DNA of 64,000 nucleotides from Candidatus Eiseniibacteriota bacterium. GTDB taxonomy: Bacteria; Eisenbacteria; RBG-16-71-46; DASYSL01. The stretch covers positions 43,412 through 107,411 of the forward strand of contig JANPEF010000061.1 in the NCBI GenBank assembly GCA_031431875.1, read 5' to 3'. A program made the position numbers and the translations under genes. Position 1 is the stretch's first letter; every line of letters starts with the position of its first letter. The notes beneath the pieces were generated by a model. The model made no database searches and was not told the DNA's origin. It was given only the letters and a program-made list of their open reading frames with translations. This document shows positions 1 through 7,672 of this stretch, in pieces.

Positions 1-311
1 CGCGCGCCATGGGCGGCGCCTCCGAGGAGGGCCGGGAAGCGCAGTTCCAGTGGGCGATGCAGAACTACGATGCGATCATGAAGCGCGTGCCACCCATGTT
101 CGCAGTGTTCATGCCGTTCGTCGGATCCGGCTGTTCCGGCGACCGGCTCACGGCGACGCAGTCGTTCTTCGCCGATCCGGCGCACGCGCCTCCGGGCACC
201 GAGAAGGAACTGGCAAAGGTGACCGAAACGGTCGAGGACTGCATGAAGCTGCGGGCGCGCGAAGGTCCGCGCGTGCGCGAGTTCCTGCAGCGAGGTCCGG
301 TTGCGAACTAG
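1..311 (+). CDS. 3' end of a probable M1-family aminopeptidase (ERAP1-like C-terminal domain), truncated by window start
   Basis: Open frame from the window edge to TAG at 309-311. The helical sequence (QFQWAMQNYDAIMKR...GCS...QSFF...ETVEDCMKLR) resembles the C-terminus of bacterial aminopeptidase N. The catalytic region is not visible. Confidence 0.6.
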   Translation, partial: RAMGGASEEGREAQFQWAMQNYDAIMKRVPPMFAVFMPFVGSGCSGDRLTATQSFFADPAHAPPGTEKELAKVTETVEDCMKLRAREGPRVREFLQRGPVAN

Positions 312-1075
312 CGGTAGCCAGCCTTGATGCGGCCCCACGTCGCCGGAACGGCCGGCGTGGGTGTCTCGTAGGTGATGGTGAGCGCGGGGCGGAGTGTGGG
401 ATCCGTCGATTCGCGGGAGTCGAACTTCTTGACCGTCTGCGCTATCGCCTCGTTGCCGCGCAGCAGCCAGCCGTGGTTGCTCGCAGGCTCGTCGAGCCAC
501 GCCTGCACGTCGGCGACCAGCCCGGGATTCGACGTCCACACGTAGGTTCCCGTTGCGTCGACCGCCAGCGTCGCGCTCGCCGCCGCCGCGAAGTCGCCCC
601 CGGCCGCGGCCCAGAGGGATCCCGGGAAGAAGGTGTGCTTCCACGTTGCGTCGCCGGCCTGTGCCGGCGCGCCGCTGCCACCGGCGATCCCGGCGTCCGA
701 GGCGCCCTCACCCCAGGCGGCGCTCGCGCGGTGCAACCCAACGTTCGCGGCTCCGGCACTCGTCTGGCTCATGATCAACTCAAGATCGACCGACAGGATC
801 GTCGCGCCGTCGGGAATCGCCGCGGCCACGTTGAACCACAGCAACCCGCGGCGGATGCTGTTCGTGGCCTGGTTGTTGCGGCCGGCGAAAAAGCTGGTGC
901 CCGCGCCGTTGCTGAGGGATCCAGTAGCGCTCTCGTAGAGCGTATTGTCTTTCGCCGCGCCGATGACCAGCGTCGTGCCGGCCCGCGCACCCGGAGCGGG
1001 AACGAGCAGGGCGACGAGGACGGCGACCAGCCGGGCCGCGGATCGGCCGCCGCGATGGGCGTGGAACGGGTTCAC
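308..1075 (-). CDS. Secreted DNRLRE-domain protein with C-terminal TWGxxKxxYR motif (255 aa)
   Basis: GTG at 1075 preceded by GAGGAG. Signal peptide ends in ARA. DNTLYE...RRGLLWF...WGEG...ATW...VQAWLD...NHGWLL...FDSRE...RPALTITY is typical of DNRLRE domains. Ends PATWGRIKAGYR. Confidence 0.8.
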   Translation of the reverse strand: MNPFHAHRGGRSAARLVAVLVALLVPAPGARAGTTLVIGAAKDNTLYESATGSLSNGAGTSFFAGRNNQATNSIRRGLLWFNVAAAIPDGATILSVDLELIMSQTSAGAANVGLHRASAAWGEGASDAGIAGGSGAPAQAGDATWKHTFFPGSLWAAAGGDFAAAASATLAVDATGTYVWTSNPGLVADVQAWLDEPASNHGWLLRGNEAIAQTVKKFDSRESTDPTLRPALTITYETPTPAVPATWGRIKAGYR

Positions 1076-1241
1076 GAAATTCTCCTCGAATGGGGTCGCC
1101 GGCGACCGATCGGCAGGGGAAGGGCCGACGACGAGTATACAACGCCCCCCCTTGCGCCCGCACCTGTGGGCGGGGAGAATGCGGCGTCCGGCCGTAGGGC
1201 TCGCCGTCCGATCATCCACCCTCCAGCTGTTCTGGGGACCC

Positions 1242-3338
1242 ATGCGCGAAGAAGACCTGCTCCGCCTCGTCTGGATCACCGATCCGCAGATCGCACCCGC
1301 GGGGGATCGCATCGTGTTCGTGCGCGTCATCGTCGACGAGGCGAACGATCGCTACGCGACCTCCCTGTGGATCGCTGATGCCGCCCTTGGCCGGCCGCGG
1401 CCGCTCACCTTCGGGCCCGGCGATGCACAGCCCCGCTGGTCGCCCGACGGCACGCGCCTCGCGTTCGTGCGCTCGCCCGAGCCCGGCCAGCCCGCACAGC
1501 TGTGGGTGATGCCCATGCGCGGCGGCGGCGAGGCCGTGCGGTTGACCGACCTGGTGAAGGGCGCGGGATCCCCGGCATGGTCGCCCGACGGCATGCAGAT
1601 CGCGTTCACCAGCGGCACGAACCCCGAGCTCGACACGCCCGACGCGGAGGCGAAGAAGCCGAAGAACGCCCCCGGGCGGATCGTCGCGCGGCCCATGGTG
1701 AAGCTCGACAACGTGGGTGCGCTCGATCCCGAACACCAGGACCACGTGTGGGTGGTGGCACTCGCCGTCGACGGCGCCGCCGCTGGAGCGCCGCGCATGC
1801 TGACCTGCGGCCGCTTCAACGAGGACGCGCCCGAGTGGTCGCCCGACGGCGCGGGCGTCTGCTTCGTGAGCGATCGCCGGCTCGCACCGTGGTATGGCCT
1901 CGATGATGCGGACGTGTGGTCCGTCGCGGCCGACCGCACGGTCCCGACCGAGAGCGAGGTCACGCTCGTTGCAGACGTGGCGGGCACCATCGGCCGCTTC
2001 ACGCTGGGCGCTGACGGTCGCGTGCTCGCGGTGGGGATGCTGACGCAGGAACCGCCTCGCTCCTACGACCAGCCCGACGTGTTCGTGTGCGCGCCGCCGT
2101 TCCCGCAGCCCACGCCGCACGGGCTCACCCAGGCATACGAGTTCGAGGCGGGGGACTCGTCGATCTCCTCCGACCAGCACCCGCCCCGGGCGGGCGGCAG
2201 CGTTCCGCTGGCGTTCATCGAGGGTGGGGCCGCCGTGCTCACGGTGGTGGGGCGGCACGGCGCGTGCATCCTGGCGCGCATCGGCGCCGACGGTTCGGTG
2301 ACCGAGCTCACGCCCGCCGATCGCGAGATCGTCTCGGGCACCGTGTCGGCCGACGGGAAGTGCGCCGCGGTGATCGTCGGCTCACCGTCCCGGCCCGGGG
2401 TGCTTTGCGCCTGCGACGTGGCGAGCGGCGCGCTGACGCCGTTGTACGACCCGAACGAGGCACTGTTCACCGAATCGAAGCTGGGGAAGGTCGAGGAGGT
2501 CTGGTACCCGTCGTTCGACGGGCAGAAGGTCCAGGGCTGGGTGGTGACGCCGCCCGGGTTCGATCCCGCGCAGAAGTATCCGCTCGTGCTGCAGATCCAC
2601 GGCGGTCCGCACGTGGCGTACGGCGTCGGCTTCTTCCACGAATTCCAGGTGCTCGCCGAGGCCGGCTATGTCGTCCTCTACGTGAACCCGCGTGGCTCGA
2701 CGACGTACGGGCAGGAGTTCGGCAACGTGATCCAGTTCGAGTATCCAGGCGACGACTGGAAGGACCTGATGGCCGGCGTCGACCTGCTGGTCGGCCGCGG
2801 CTTCATCGACGCGACGCGGATGGGCGTCACCGGCGGATCGGGCGGGGGGCTCCTGACCAACTGGACGGTGGTGAACACCGATCGCTTCGCCTGCGCGATC
2901 ACGCAGCGCTGCGTCGCCGACTGGACGTCGTTCTGGTACGGGGCCGATTTCGCGCAGTTGACGAACTTCTGGTTCCGCGGCGCGCCCCACGAGGATCCGG
3001 CCGACTATGCGCGCCGCTCACCGCTGACGCACGCGGCCCGGGCGAAGACGCCGCTGCTCGTCGTCCACAGCGAGGACGACTGGCGGACGCCGATCGTTCA
3101 GGGGGAGGGGATGTTTCGCGCCATGCTTGCCCAGCGCGTGCCCACGGCGATGATCCGCTTCCCGGGCGAGGGCCACGAGCTGTCGCGGAGCGGCGCGCCG
3201 TCGCGGCGGGTGCAGAACCAGCGCGTGATGCGCCGCTGGTTCGATCGCTGGCTCCAGGGCAAGGACGCGCCCGAGTTCGACGATCCGCTGGCCGCGGCAC
3301 CGGCGCCGCTTCCGGCAGGGGCCCGCGCGAAGGGCTAG
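1242..3338 (+). CDS. S9 family serine peptidase (acylaminoacyl/dipeptidyl peptidase) with PD40 beta-propeller
   Basis: Repeated WSPDG motifs, IHGGPH, nucleophile GGSGGG, EDDWR Asp and GEGHELSRSG His. Alternative ATG at 1179. Confidence 0.92.
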   Translation: MREEDLLRLVWITDPQIAPAGDRIVFVRVIVDEANDRYATSLWIADAALGRPRPLTFGPGDAQPRWSPDGTRLAFVRSPEPGQPAQLWVMPMRGGGEAVRLTDLVKGAGSPAWSPDGMQIAFTSGTNPELDTPDAEAKKPKNAPGRIVARPMVKLDNVGALDPEHQDHVWVVALAVDGAAAGAPRMLTCGRFNEDAPEWSPDGAGVCFVSDRRLAPWYGLDDADVWSVAADRTVPTESEVTLVADVAGTIGRFTLGADGRVLAVGMLTQEPPRSYDQPDVFVCAPPFPQPTPHGLTQAYEFEAGDSSISSDQHPPRAGGSVPLAFIEGGAAVLTVVGRHGACILARIGADGSVTELTPADREIVSGTVSADGKCAAVIVGSPSRPGVLCACDVASGALTPLYDPNEALFTESKLGKVEEVWYPSFDGQKVQGWVVTPPGFDPAQKYPLVLQIHGGPHVAYGVGFFHEFQVLAEAGYVVLYVNPRGSTTYGQEFGNVIQFEYPGDDWKDLMAGVDLLVGRGFIDATRMGVTGGSGGGLLTNWTVVNTDRFACAITQRCVADWTSFWYGADFAQLTNFWFRGAPHEDPADYARRSPLTHAARAKTPLLVVHSEDDWRTPIVQGEGMFRAMLAQRVPTAMIRFPGEGHELSRSGAPSRRVQNQRVMRRWFDRWLQGKDAPEFDDPLAAAPAPLPAGARAKG

Positions 3339-4538: not shown

Positions 4539-4567
4539 TTGACACCCGGTGCGGATGCTCCTATGCT
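4539..4567 (+). promoter_or_regulatory. Putative sigma70 promoter for the 4677 gene
   Basis: TTGACA-N17-TATGCT. Confidence 0.7.
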
Positions 4568-4676: not shown

Positions 4677-5387
4677 ATGAAGCGCTTGTCATTCCTGTCC
4701 GCGTTTGCCCTCTTGGCCGCGCCCGCCCTTGCCTTCGCCGCTCCGAATGCCGGCACCTACCAGACCACCGACCTCGGCGGCCAGCTCCTCACCGGGCGCG
4801 CCTCGTCGCACCGGACGGGGATCAACTCCGGCCTGCCGCATGTCCTGCACTCGCAGTCGTGGAACGGCTCGACGCTCGGCACGCAGTGGGAGTTGCGCTG
4901 CGCGGTCGAGAACGCCGCGTTCGGCATCCAGGACAACCGCGTCAACGGCACCGGCACCATCGTCTACAGCTCGACCTACACCGGCGGCCAGTTCGAGCTG
5001 TACAACACCGGCGGCGCCTGGGGTGACGGCGTGGCCGCGCTCGGAACGACGAGCATCATCTCGACCGTGCAGTTCGTGAACATCAACAACGTCTCGACGC
5101 CGGTCGCGTCGGTCGTCAATGCCAACACCTCGGGTGACTTCGGCGGCGGCTGCGTCCTCACCTTCGCGATCGCGAATGGCGTCGGCGTGGGCGAGACGAC
5201 GAGCCTCGACGTTTCGATCCAGAAGCCGGCCGACTACCCGACGTTCCTCGCCGCCAACTGCGGCCTCGCCTTGCCCAACGAGCAGTTCGGCACGTGGGGC
5301 ACCATGATCACCGGGACGCTGCGCATCGATTGCTCGGTCGACGCAACGACTTCGACCTGGGGCGCGGTGAAGAACATCTATCGCTGA
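4677..5387 (+). CDS. Secreted beta-rich hypothetical protein with C-terminal TWGxxKxxYR motif (236 aa)
   Basis: ATG after GGAGG. Signal peptide MKRLSFLSAFALLAAPALAFA. Ends STWGAVKNIYR. Its TGA stop is partly supplied by the IS end. Confidence 0.85.
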   Translation: MKRLSFLSAFALLAAPALAFAAPNAGTYQTTDLGGQLLTGRASSHRTGINSGLPHVLHSQSWNGSTLGTQWELRCAVENAAFGIQDNRVNGTGTIVYSSTYTGGQFELYNTGGAWGDGVAALGTTSIISTVQFVNINNVSTPVASVVNANTSGDFGGGCVLTFAIANGVGVGETTSLDVSIQKPADYPTFLAANCGLALPNEQFGTWGTMITGTLRIDCSVDATTSTWGAVKNIYR

Positions 5388-5420
5388 TATGGCATGACCT
5401 CTTGTCAAGCTGGTCCACAC

Positions 5421-5454
5421 GCGACCACCGCTCCGGCGGTGGTCGCTGTGTTTT
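5421..5454 (+). terminator. Terminator-like hairpin inside the IS right end
   Basis: GCGACCACCGC-TCCG-GCGGTGGTCGC (11-bp stem) followed by TGTGTTTT on the plus strand. Confidence 0.6.
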
Positions 5455-5462
5455 GGGGAGAT

Positions 5463-5684
5463 GAGCTTCTGGAAGGACGGACGCGGAAGTCGCCGACGGC
5501 GTGTCACTCTGATATCCGCGGGTTGCCTCGAAGGATCGGGGCCGAGCCGCATGACCGTAGTTCGTCGGGAGGTACCGCAGTCTAGCATCGTGAGTCGGTG
5601 GCTCCGGTGAACCGGAGTCCCGTCGCGTAGCGATATCGCGGGTTATCTCACGCATCATCCCCTCGTCCGTCCATCCTGAAGCTC
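5463..5684 (-). ncRNA. Predicted IS110 bridge RNA / seekRNA
   Basis: Enclosed by a 19/21 inverted repeat (5463-5483 with 5664-5684). Two internal hairpins (5602-5617, 5525-5542) are each flanked by segments matching the target (TATCGCTA, GATGCTAG) or the donor junction (TACGGTCA, ATATCAGA). Exact RNA ends are unknown. Confidence 0.75.
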
Positions 5685-6804
5685 AGCCTTGGGCCTTCGC
5701 GGCTTCCGGCCGGGCCAGTGCGGCCCAGAGGAAGCCGGCGAGCTCGCGAGCAATCGCGATGACGATCTTGTTGCGGTGCTTGCCTCGAGCCTCCATCTGC
5801 CGGAATCGACGACAGAGCCGCTTCTGGGCCCGATCGGCCAGGGCAATCATGGCCGGCGGCTGGCCAAGCCGCCGGTTCGCCAGGTCCTTGCTGACCCGAG
5901 CCTTGTGGCGGTAGTTCCAGGAGCCTTCGATCAGAGTGCGGCGCACGTGCTGGTTGCCGGCGCGCGTGATCCCGCCGCGGCGATGATGATCTCCACTGCT
6001 GGCTTCCGAGGGCACGAGCCCGAGAAAGGCCATGAGCGAAGGAGCAGACGGAAACCTCCGAACGTCATGAAGCTCCGACAGCAAGATCATGGCGTTCACC
6101 GTGTCGATCCCGCGAAAGCAGCGGAGCCAACCGACTCGTTCGCGCCACGGCTCTCCCTGGGAGATCGCCAGGAGCTCGACATCGAGCGCGGAGCGCTGGG
6201 CCTCACGCTGCTCGACCGTGAGCAGGTAGTCCTCGAAGACGATCCGCTCGGAAGGGCGTTCGAACACCAGGCTCGTGAGCCAGGTCCGATGGGCCTGAGA
6301 CCACGAGTGTGCTTGCCCCGTGCCGAAGACCAGCCCGTGCCGCAACAGGAAGTGCGTGAGGCGGTGACGCGCCCGCGTGAGATCGACGCGCGCATCGTCG
6401 CGGCAGCGGCACAGATCCCGTACCGCCTCCTCGTCAACGCTCGGAGGATGGACTTCGGTCAGAAGCCCTGCGCGAAACAGCTCGGCCAGCTTGCGCGCAT
6501 CCCTGCGATCGGTCTTGATGCGATCGCCCGGCCGAAGCGGCGTCAGGGACGGCGCGATCACCGTGCACTCGCAGCCCTGAGCGATCAGATCACGCTGAAG
6601 CACGTAACCGCAGGGTCCTGCTTCGTAACAGCAACGAACCGGTCCCTGCGCCTGGGCCTTGATGCGCTGGACCAACTTGCGGACTTGGGCCGCCTGGTTC
6701 GCGATCTGCCCATTCCACGGCTCCCGATCCTGGGGCTTGAGTACGCAAAACGAGATCGTGTTGCGATGGACATCCAGACCGACGATGGTGCTAGGCTCTT
6801 GCAC
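5683..6804 (-). CDS. IS110 family transposase/recombinase (DEDD RuvC-like domain plus Tnp_20 domain), 373 aa
   Basis: GTG at 6804 after GGGAG. Motifs GLDVH, YEAG, KTDRRDA, GLVPSEASSG (catalytic Ser), GITRAGN, AIARELAGFLW. Confidence 0.95.
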   Translation of the reverse strand: MQEPSTIVGLDVHRNTISFCVLKPQDREPWNGQIANQAAQVRKLVQRIKAQAQGPVRCCYEAGPCGYVLQRDLIAQGCECTVIAPSLTPLRPGDRIKTDRRDARKLAELFRAGLLTEVHPPSVDEEAVRDLCRCRDDARVDLTRARHRLTHFLLRHGLVFGTGQAHSWSQAHRTWLTSLVFERPSERIVFEDYLLTVEQREAQRSALDVELLAISQGEPWRERVGWLRCFRGIDTVNAMILLSELHDVRRFPSAPSLMAFLGLVPSEASSGDHHRRGGITRAGNQHVRRTLIEGSWNYRHKARVSKDLANRRLGQPPAMIALADRAQKRLCRRFRQMEARGKHRNKIVIAIARELAGFLWAALARPEAAKAQG

Positions 6805-6952
6805 GGCCGGCTCCCTTCGTATGCGGCTCTGCTGCTTCAAGCAGCAAACCGCGTCAGAGTGGATCAAACCACCCGGTCGTTCCCGGGGTTCCTGGTTGGG
6901 AACGACGGTACGAACCGGGGGCCGGTCATGCCATAGGGTCTAGAGTCGGGGC

Positions 6953-7672
6953 CTAGTCCGGCAGCGTCGAGACCTTGAACGGCGTCGGCGGAGACGAGGT
7001 GACGACCTTGCCGCCTTCGTCCCGGGCGTCCACGCGGACGAGCAGCGCCTGTCCCGCAACCGGACGGAAGTCGAGTTCGGAGGCCGGCACGTCGAGCGCC
7101 GAGTCGCCGCGCACGCTCCGGTATGCCAGCTCTTCGAGGCGGTCCGAGTAGACGCGCACCTCGTAGGTGTCGGCGCCCGGAACCGCGTTCCACGAGACGT
7201 GCAATCCGTCGACATCGAGCCCGGCCGAGCGGACGCGCAGCATCGGCGCATTCGCATCGCTCGATCCGCCGCGCAGGACCTGCGATGGATCGTGCTCCGC
7301 ATGGCGCGGCCACAGAACGACCCCGCCCACCACGATTGCCGCCACCACGAGCCCCAGCGCGGGCCGCAGTGCCGGCGCGAACAGCGCGGCCCACCACGAG
7401 GTGCGCGGCGTCGCGCGTAACGGCGCGTGGGGTGCAGGGTCGGGTTCGGAAGGCGCGCCGATCGTCCGCGCCAGGAACGCCGACAGCCGGGCGTCCGCCG
7501 CCGCGACGTCCGGCAGCGCGGCGTCGGCGCCGGGATCCATGAACCGGGCGTAGGCATCGAGCAGCGCGCCGCAGCGCGGGCACTGCGCGACGTGGGCGCG
7601 GCGCGGATCCGTCGCCGGCAGCTCGGCGACCGTGGCCAGTTCCTCGACCGGCATGCAGGGCGTGACGGTCAC
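6953..7672 (-). CDS. Putative anti-sigma factor (HxxxCxxC zinc motif, one TM helix, extracytoplasmic beta domain)
   Basis: GTG overlaps the sigma-factor stop (GTGA). Contains HVAQCPRC and the TM segment LGLVVAAIVVGGVVLW. Confidence 0.8.
   Translation of the reverse strand: MTVTPCMPVEELATVAELPATDPRRAHVAQCPRCGALLDAYARFMDPGADAALPDVAAADARLSAFLARTIGAPSEPDPAPHAPLRATPRTSWWAALFAPALRPALGLVVAAIVVGGVVLWPRHAEHDPSQVLRGGSSDANAPMLRVRSAGLDVDGLHVSWNAVPGADTYEVRVYSDRLEELAYRSVRGDSALDVPASELDFRPVAGQALLVRVDARDEGGKVVTSSPPTPFKVSTLPD

What the first reader, a model, noticed from the sequence alone, without database searches (positions are those of the whole stretch)
5463..5684. IS110 bridge/seek RNA whose four guide segments can be read against the reconstructed target and donor
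Seen: removing the element with one CT core gives the empty site ..TATCG-CT-AGAGTC.. and the circle junction ..TAGGGT-CT-GATAT.. (plus strand). The RNA downstream of the transposase (minus strand) reads 5'->3': TATCGCTA (5635-5628, 8/8 to target left + core + next base), a hairpin, GATGCTAG (5589-5582, 6/8 to the reverse complement of target right, CTAG exact), TACGGTCA (5559-5552, 6/8 to donor left), a hairpin, and ATATCAGA (5515-5508, 8/8 to the reverse complement of donor right). A 19/21 stem encloses the whole region. Established: IS110/IS1111 recombinases use such bispecific RNAs, and IS621 has a target loop followed by a donor loop and a CT core. Inference: this is an intact, naturally programmed RNA-guided recombinase from an under-sampled lineage, with the RNA downstream of the transposase.
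Basis: partly seen in the sequence, partly recalled or inferred. Interest (0 to 1): 0.88.

Follow-up and report, generated by a model that had tools for sequence, protein, structure and literature searches.

The report
RNA-guided transposon homing to stop codons
This is a known kind of RNA-guided jumping gene, but its guide is set to the last two codons and stop of a family of secreted-protein genes, and its relatives across the same bacterial phylum sit overwhelmingly at the stop codons of secreted-protein genes, which leaves the host proteins intact.

Summary
Window 5386-6941 is an intact IS110-family element with IS1111-type layout (ISSfr2/ISCARN28 clade, 12-bp subterminal repeats, RNA downstream of the transposase). 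Across 67 homologues the guides change with their own targets and donors (left target guide 41-60/67 per position against 19-57 shuffled), and the fold shows compensatory changes. Two corrections: the right target guide is only about 4 nt, and the eighth 'donor' base is a handshake position. A downstream bridge RNA in this clade is already published.

All four left junctions in this genome lie at TAY-CGC-T|AG, the Tyr-Arg-stop of a gene; three end in a WGxxKxxYR tail that about 65 ORFs carry. The element restores a stop (TGA) and adds a terminator-like hairpin. Phylum-wide, 106 of 134 junctions sit at stops of WG-tail or T9SS-type sorting-domain genes. The guide alone explains this element's specificity but not that of the T9SS-end sister lineage. 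I found no paper on this; the scan noted T9SS stop-codon homing once before on other DNA (e1-767677). RNA expression, binding and circles were not shown.

The parts
4677..5387 (+). Host gene, 236 aa, signal-peptide-like N-terminus (by eye), C-terminal tail ...TWGAVKNIYR; its TGA stop is formed by the core T plus the first two element bases
   Evidence: no Pfam or NCBIfam family; Atlas neighbours are Krumholzibacteriota/Eiseniibacteriota hypothetical proteins
5379..5385 (+). Left target TATCG plus CT core (Tyr codon, Arg codon, first base of stop)
5386..6941 (-). IS110-family insertion sequence, 1556 bp with one core, antisense to the host gene
5388..5399 (.). Subterminal inverted repeat, 12 bp, perfect partner of 6924-6935
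5403..5408 (-). TTGACA facing out of the element; probable -35 of a circle-junction promoter (inferred)
   Evidence: TTGA[C/A] lies 21-26 nt from the end in 63 of 67 homologues; no good -10 forms across this element's junction
5421..5456 (+). Terminator-like hairpin (11 bp) with T-rich tail, oriented to stop host-gene transcription
   Evidence: a stem of 8 bp or more near this end in 13 of 21 phylum elements against 13 of 46 others
5462..5685 (-). Predicted bridge/seek RNA enclosed by a 20/22 stem; true transcript ends unknown
5628..5635 (-). Left target guide (target -5 to +1); U at the third position can wobble to accept TAT or TAC (inferred)
5582..5585 (-). Right target guide CTAG (core plus 2 nt: reads the TAG stop)
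   Evidence: IS621 right target guide is also 4 nt (PMC11208158 section 8)
5580..5581 (-). Target-loop handshake dinucleotide AC, complementary to donor GT at 6938-6939
   Evidence: 66 and 41 of 67 against 60 and 31 shuffled
5552..5559 (-). Left donor guide plus linker A (imperfect match)
   Evidence: a copy in another study has T>C at the first base
5509..5515 (-). Right donor guide ATATCAG; 5508-5507 is the donor-loop handshake
   Evidence: 67, 67, 64 of 67 at +1 to +3 against 41, 33, 54 shuffled
5683..6804 (-). Transposase, 373 aa, GTG start; D11, E61, D99, D102 and S270 invariant in 17 homologues
   Evidence: PF01548 and PF02371; NF033542 236.7 bits, cut-off 140; fold matches IS621 and ISCro4
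6821..6853 (+). Conserved copy, antisense to the transposase, of the bridge RNA's inner stem module, directly upstream of the ribosome-binding site at 6811-6818
   Evidence: 55 of 67 homologues by regular expression; function untested
6924..6943 (+). Right subterminal repeat, left donor, CT core (6940-6941) and AG, the displaced remainder of the original TAG stop

Best explanation
An IS110-family element of the ISSfr2/ISCARN28 clade. Inferred from IS621 and IS1111 work: it excises as a circle, expresses the RNA downstream of its transposase, and the transposase-RNA complex recombines the circle junction (donor loop) with a chromosomal site (target loop) at a CT core. Shown by sequence: its target loop specifies about 9 nt, TAY-CGC-TAG, which in this genome is almost only the end of genes carrying a WGxxKxxYR tail, a family of about 65 ORFs. 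The invariant core T is the first base of the stop, the tolerant first core base is the wobble base of the last codon, and the element end supplies GA, so the protein is unchanged; a hairpin behind it probably terminates the host transcript. A protein sorting motif thus serves as a multicopy, low-cost landing site, as REP repeats do for IS621. A related lineage does the same at the ends of T9SS type A sorting-domain genes.
For: Guide covariation in 67 elements with both ends: left target guide 452/737 positions against 267 +/- 10 shuffled, including changes that follow codon changes (TTC-CGC for Phe-Arg in L003; core-base changes CGA and CGG in L012 and L016). Structure: 97% of cells paired, 11 of 19 pairs with two-sided changes, 0/500 shuffles, slid controls 19-55%. 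This genome: 4 of 4 left junctions at TAY-CGC-T at a gene's stop, 3 of 4 in the WG tail; 3 of 3 right junctions continue AG. Empty TAYCGCTAG occurs 6 times in 3.75 Mb: 5 WG-tail stops and 1 other gene end. An 88%-identical orthologue is empty and ends in TAG. Phylum: 106 of 134 distinct junctions classed as WG-tail (21) or T9SS-like (85) ends; the frame ending at the core is open for 150 codons or more in 105 of 121 against 42 and 5 in the other two frames; TIGR04183 matches 85 of the 121 junction ORFs of 40 aa or more. The host has SprA, PorV-family and PorU genes.
Against: No RNA data, no binding data, and no circle or empty-allele joint in four contig sets. The left donor guide matches poorly and its GTCA could instead pair inside the RNA. 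The junction set came from one end pattern that fixes the first three bases as TRR, so restored stops in it are by construction, and it covers only lineages with that repeat; kin are not independent. The TGA-forming end is also the commonest end in elements with other targets (31 of 46), so it is probably a pre-existing trait, not an adaptation. In the T9SS-end lineage guides often match only 4-6 of 8, and the guide-like word STGCGNTRR marks T9SS ends in only 21 of 342 sites of this genome, so guide pairing does not explain that lineage. 33 of 134 junctions lack the internal TTGAC and may be relics kept by selection.
Confidence: 0.8

Rival explanations
1. Survivor bias: the elements insert at many loosely matching sites, and only insertions at stop codons survive because they are harmless or give the gene a terminator; the link to sorting-signal genes reflects their abundance and what selection keeps.
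For: Loose guide matches and low background specificity in the T9SS-end lineage; many junctions are relics or mini-elements; earlier scan note e1-767677 read such relics as terminators.
Against: For this element the exact guide word is itself nearly confined to WG-tail stops (5 of 6 empty sites). Guides themselves encode codon-plus-stop words and track codon changes. Other gene ends should be equally harmless, yet T9SS ends are only 21 of about 69 candidate gene ends matching the sister lineage's word in this genome (crude gene filter) while they make up 85 of the 113 non-WG junctions.
Confidence: 0.3
2. The T9SS-end lineage uses a second layer of specificity beyond the 8+4-nt guides, such as a longer DNA feature of the hydrophobic-codon run, a downstream terminator structure, or access tied to transcription or translation ending at these genes.
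For: Guide-target identity of only 4-6 of 8 in several of these elements; strong periodic T at -14, -11, -8, -5 in junction flanks; excess over background.
Against: The periodic T is expected from the protein motif; the background was measured in one genome that is not the host of those elements; selection can raise the share; nothing beyond -5 covaries with the guide.
Confidence: 0.2
3. The RNA is only a target seeker (seekRNA sense); the donor is recognised mainly by protein at the subterminal repeats and the second loop is largely structural.
For: Weak left donor guide, alternative internal pairing GTCA/TGAC invariant in 13 close homologues; short seekRNAs suffice for ISEc11 (10.1101/2024.04.26.591405, passages).
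Against: The right donor guide follows every change of the element end (67, 67, 64 of 67) and the left donor guide covaries at -4 to -2 above shuffles; both handshake positions covary crosswise as in IS621.
Confidence: 0.12
4. The guide matches are chance or relic and the element is dead.
For: No expression or circle evidence.
Against: Intact ORF with all catalytic residues, 100% identical ends at several loci, family-wide covariation.
Confidence: 0.04

Closest known systems
ISSfr2 / ISCARN28 / ISEc45 clade of the IS110 family (ISCARN28 is drawn as an IS1111-group bridge RNA in PMC11208160 Fig. 6d, legend seen)
   Same: Transposase 44-45% identical to an ISSfr2-family protein; same layout; model R1 detects ISSfr2-like RNAs. 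ISCARN28 is listed beside ISSfr2 in the PMC11187229 source data and shares motifs by eye; it was not aligned here.
   Different: The ISSfr2-like elements seen here hit the stop of IS630 transposase genes and their end does not restore a stop; this lineage hits host secreted-protein genes and restores it.
IS621 bridge recombinase (PMC11208160, PMC11208158)
   Same: DEDD plus Ser chemistry, fold (Foldseek E 1e-13), target loop then donor loop, CT core with tolerant first base, 4-nt right target guide, handshake dinucleotides, multicopy target.
   Different: 22% identity; RNA downstream, not upstream; 12-bp subterminal repeats; left target guide covers -5 to +1 (IS621's 9-nt left guide ends at the core); target is coding sequence plus stop, not a REP repeat.
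IS1111-family seekRNA elements ISEc11, ISPa11, ISKpn4 (PMC11187229)
   Same: Downstream non-coding region, subterminal repeats, same order of strand matches in transposase orientation.
   Different: Transposase 373 aa against 330-350 aa for that family; placement in the strict IS1111 clade not tested.
ISPpu9 with Asr9/Ssr9 (PMC12288879, passages)
   Same: Structured 5' leader predicted to hide the ribosome-binding site; a 5' antisense segment resembling a downstream RNA; mini-elements built from ends.
   Different: ISPpu9 is IS110-group, targets REPs and has an upstream bridge RNA; no antisense transcript is shown here.
IS900/IS116-type elements inserting between ribosome-binding site and start codon (recalled; search returned nothing)
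   Same: An IS110-family element using a gene-boundary motif as target, antisense to the gene.
   Different: Gene start rather than stop; not tied to a protein sorting motif.

Membership tests
IS110 family (bridge recombinases) | N-terminal DEDD RuvC domain and C-terminal Tnp domain with catalytic serine | tested here: met
   PF01548 E 7e-20, PF02371 E 4e-19; NF033542 above cut-off; D11/E61/D99/D102/S270 invariant; fold
IS110 family (bridge recombinases) | Insertion at a 2-nt core with no longer target duplication | tested here: met
IS110 family (bridge recombinases) | Non-coding RNA with target and donor loops whose guides covary with target and donor | tested here: met
IS110 family (bridge recombinases) | RNA is expressed and binds the transposase | not testable with these tools
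   no RNA holder listed
IS110 family (bridge recombinases) | Circular intermediate | tested here: inconclusive
   no joint in four contig sets, which drop rare forms
IS1111 group | Subterminal inverted repeats of 7-17 bp | tested here: met
   12 bp perfect; range from PMC11208160
IS1111 group | Long non-coding end with the RNA downstream of the transposase | tested here: met
   297 nt downstream against 137 nt upstream
IS1111 group | Top-strand complement precedes bottom-strand match in transposase orientation | tested here: met
   against passages of 10.1101/2024.04.26.591405
IS1111 family in the strict sense of PMC11187229 | Transposase of 330-350 aa related over its full length to IS1111 and in its clade | tested here: inconclusive
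   373 aa, outside the range; no tree with IS1111 itself was built

The most novel reading that the evidence does not exclude
Bridge-recombinase lineages in this phylum have been programmed to read protein sorting signals at the DNA level (last codons plus stop), making secretion-signal genes a phylum-wide safe harbour, and the T9SS-end lineage finds these sites with an extra specificity layer beyond RNA-DNA pairing; a conserved antisense copy of the transposase-binding RNA module over the ribosome-binding site adds a feedback control.
Probability: 0.2. Interest if true: 0.8.

Novelty: new variant of a known kind. Interest (0 to 1): 0.58.

Why it matters
It shows a target strategy for RNA-guided transposons that I did not find in print: using the conserved coding end of a large protein family as a multicopy neutral site, with core chemistry that fits codon wobble and the stop's first base. 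It gives a natural set of 67 guide-target-donor triplets for an IS1111-type clade, including handshake covariation, useful for engineering and for scarless insertion directly behind a gene. It also poses a testable gap: a related lineage is more specific than its guides predict.

Tried and rejected
Rfam: nothing for the RNA. Single-protein scan of genome contigs gave one locus only. Sequencing runs: no RNA holder listed; four DNA contig sets showed no empty-site or circle joint, which shows nothing either way; higher contig depth over the element than the flanks in one run is not used as a copy number. Longer right-target pairing (+4, +5) and left-target pairing beyond -5 were rejected by covariation. 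Independent origin of WG-tail and T9SS-end targeting: the two are separate well-supported groups in quick trees (the careful tree did not finish), but the AU test did not reject one clade (p 0.27, 36 chosen proteins, LG+G4), so no claim of convergence is made. Reading the 5' module as antisense pairing partner of the bridge RNA was judged unlikely because its stem varies with itself and not with the donor loop (by eye); folding energy did not pick a strand (sense lower in 39, antisense in 28). A sigma-70 junction promoter is not clear for this element (conserved -35, poor -10). No family model for the WG tail. Rows dropped: of 100 loci given to the RNA model (viral loci L117-L147 and 15 short or truncated ones were not given) 95 matched; 67 were kept that had both ends with standard spacing and enough flank; L014, L088, L123 were set aside as miscalled ends and L001 as a duplicate. 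Literature: searches (IS110/IS1111 with stop codon; Eisenbacteria sorting motif or T9SS) listed nothing on this; I judged most listed papers by title and abstract start only. ISfinder notes, subscription papers, bioRxiv supplements and two picture-only supplement files could not be seen and may record such targets.

Full report
Observation. The two 8/8 matches are rare in shuffles (about 0.1% each), the two 6/8 matches are not (about 50% each), and all four together arose in 0 of 20,000 shuffles. The region folds better than 199 of 200 shuffles.

The element. It spans 5386-6941 with one core, antisense to the upstream gene. The 373-aa transposase (6804-5683) has PF01548 and PF02371, passes NF033542, keeps D11, E61, D99, D102 and S270 in 17 of 17 homologues, and its model (pLDDT 84) matches IS621 and ISCro4 best. 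Perfect 12-bp subterminal repeats lie at 5388-5399 and 6924-6935. The genome holds one full copy, three more identical RNA-side ends and two transposase-side ends (one 90% identical) at contig edges. The ends are confirmed by their different flanks, by an empty orthologue ending TAC-CGC-TAG, and by a 35-bp mini-element of the two repeats at the orthologous site in another genome of the genus.

Covariation test. I gathered relatives from the phylum, metagenomes, viral contigs and plasmids, called ends, built an RNA model and aligned 95 matches from 100 loci; 67 had both ends and enough flank. Against 5,000 permutations: left target guide positions -5 to -1 match in 41, 48, 55, 55, 54 of 67 (expected 19-23), the first core base in 57 (45.5), +1 in 55; right target guide +1 to +3 in 65, 60, 44 (29, 22, 19) but +4 and +5 not above chance; right donor guide +1 to +3 in 67, 67, 64; left donor guide -4 to -2 in 29, 37, 60. 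The dinucleotide after the right target guide matches the donor (66 and 41 against 60 and 31), and the first base after the right donor guide matches the target (25 against 13.5; the second base does not, 20 against 24), the crosswise handshake pattern described for IS621 (PMC11208158, passages and sections 7-8). The four helices are 97% paired with 11 of 19 pairs changing on both sides, above 500 shuffles and the slid controls (the alignment was fitted to the structure). Relatives are not independent, so permutation values overstate; the position-specific diagonal is the stronger argument. Ten of the 67 match at only 2-4 of 8 left-guide positions, some through alignment shifts.

The target. 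All four left junctions in this genome fall after TAY-CGC, at the stop of a gene, and all three right junctions continue AG. Three genes end in WGxxKxxYR; the fourth ends FGSTYR without the motif, as expected if DNA and not the protein motif is read. The motif WGx[ILVM]K lies 4-5 residues before a stop in 65 of 77 occurrences. Empty TAYCGCTAG occurs six times: five WG-tail stops and one other gene end; CTAG is itself depleted (1,698 against about 5,900 expected). So the guide suffices for this element. Three of four sites have TAC where the guide has U, which an rU:dG wobble would allow (inference). The element's end turns the split TAG into TGA and places a terminator-like hairpin 35 nt later.

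The phylum. An end pattern found junctions in 72 of 206 genomes. Of 134 distinct junctions, 21 end a WG-tail ORF and 85 a T9SS-like domain by regular expression; 28 were unclassed, several of them similar by eye. The frame ending at the core is open for 150 codons or more in 105 of 121, against 42 and 5 for the other frames. TIGR04183 matches 85 and FlgD_ig 68 of the 121 junction ORFs of at least 40 aa at E 0.01. Such genes are a minority: 154 T9SS-like and 63 WG-tail ORFs in this genome, which has SprA, PorV-family and PorU genes. Limits: the pattern fixes the first three bases as TRR and covers only lineages with that repeat; 33 of 134 junctions look like relics. In the set not chosen that way, the empty site reads as a stop triplet in 18 of 21 phylum elements and 26 of 46 others, and the filled site in 19 of 21 and 34 of 46, so the stop-forming end is ancestral and widespread and was probably co-opted. 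ISSfr2-like relatives hit the stop of IS630 transposase genes without restoring it. The phylum is probably Candidatus Eisenbacteria (Atlas taxa; earlier scan notes; not verified here).

What is unexplained. In the T9SS-end lineage guides often match 4-6 of 8, and the guide-like word marks T9SS ends at only 21 of 342 sites in this genome, used as a proxy. Selection, gene abundance in the real hosts, or an extra determinant must supply the rest. WG-tail and T9SS-end elements form separate supported groups in quick trees, but one clade was not rejected.

Mechanism. Shown by sequence comparison: ends, core, guides, handshake, target identity. Taken from IS621 and IS1111 work: circle formation, junction promoter, RNA binding, strand exchange. 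Inferred: wobble reading of the Tyr codon, neutrality for the host protein, termination by the hairpin, translational repression by the 5' leader (ribosome-binding site mostly paired in predictions), and any role of the antisense module found in 55 of 67 homologues, reminiscent of ISPpu9 Asr9 (PMC12288879, passages).

Comparison and novelty. A downstream RNA with subterminal repeats is the published IS1111-group layout (PMC11208160 passages; PMC11187229 abstract and sections 6 and 13), and ISCARN28, apparently of this clade, has a drawn bridge RNA. PMC13626964 was seen as abstract only; two preprints as passages, with no mention of stop-codon targets. As a bridge RNA this is a new member of a known kind. 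Targeting the coded end of sorting-signal genes with stop restoration was not found in searches. The scan reported T9SS-cargo stop-codon homing from relics in another genome (e1-767677), an IS110 on a stop/start overlap (e1-7862637) and the WG tail in this genome (e1-927765); I had reached the reading before seeing them and tested it on my own data. Verdict: new variant of a known kind, interest 0.58.

Noticed in passing
G000 genome-wide; window 308-1330 (-) and 4677-5387 (+): About 65 ORFs end in WGxxKxxYR(x)-stop; no Pfam or NCBIfam model covers the tail; likely a sorting signal (also noted in e1-927765).
   Followed up: partly
window 6821-6853 (+): Antisense copy of the bridge RNA's inner stem module next to the transposase ribosome-binding site, conserved in 55 of 67 homologues.
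   Followed up: partly
L294 (G067:C41:6119 onward) and L231: Mini-elements made of little more than the two subterminal repeats, inserted at gene stops.
   Followed up: partly
G000 C67 near 35010 (-), C2 near 18313 (-), C46 near 1911 (+); L301: Decayed element ends directly behind WG-tail stops; the C67 one keeps the outward -35 and a hairpin.
   Followed up: partly
L034, L036, L093, L118, L121: ISSfr2-like elements insert at the stop codon of IS630 transposase genes.
   Followed up: partly
L020: Element with an intact-looking transposase whose bridge RNA is deleted; it could move only with RNA supplied in trans.
   Followed up: no
window 6942-6955: In the empty site the host gene and the convergent downstream gene would stop about 9 nt apart, with no room for a terminator.
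   Followed up: no
window 4539-4567 (+): Near-consensus sigma-70 promoter upstream of the host gene.
   Followed up: no
G000 C25, C58 and others: SprA, PorU and at least seven PorV-family genes above cut-off, with about 150 T9SS-like cargo ORFs, in a probable Eisenbacteria genome.
   Followed up: partly
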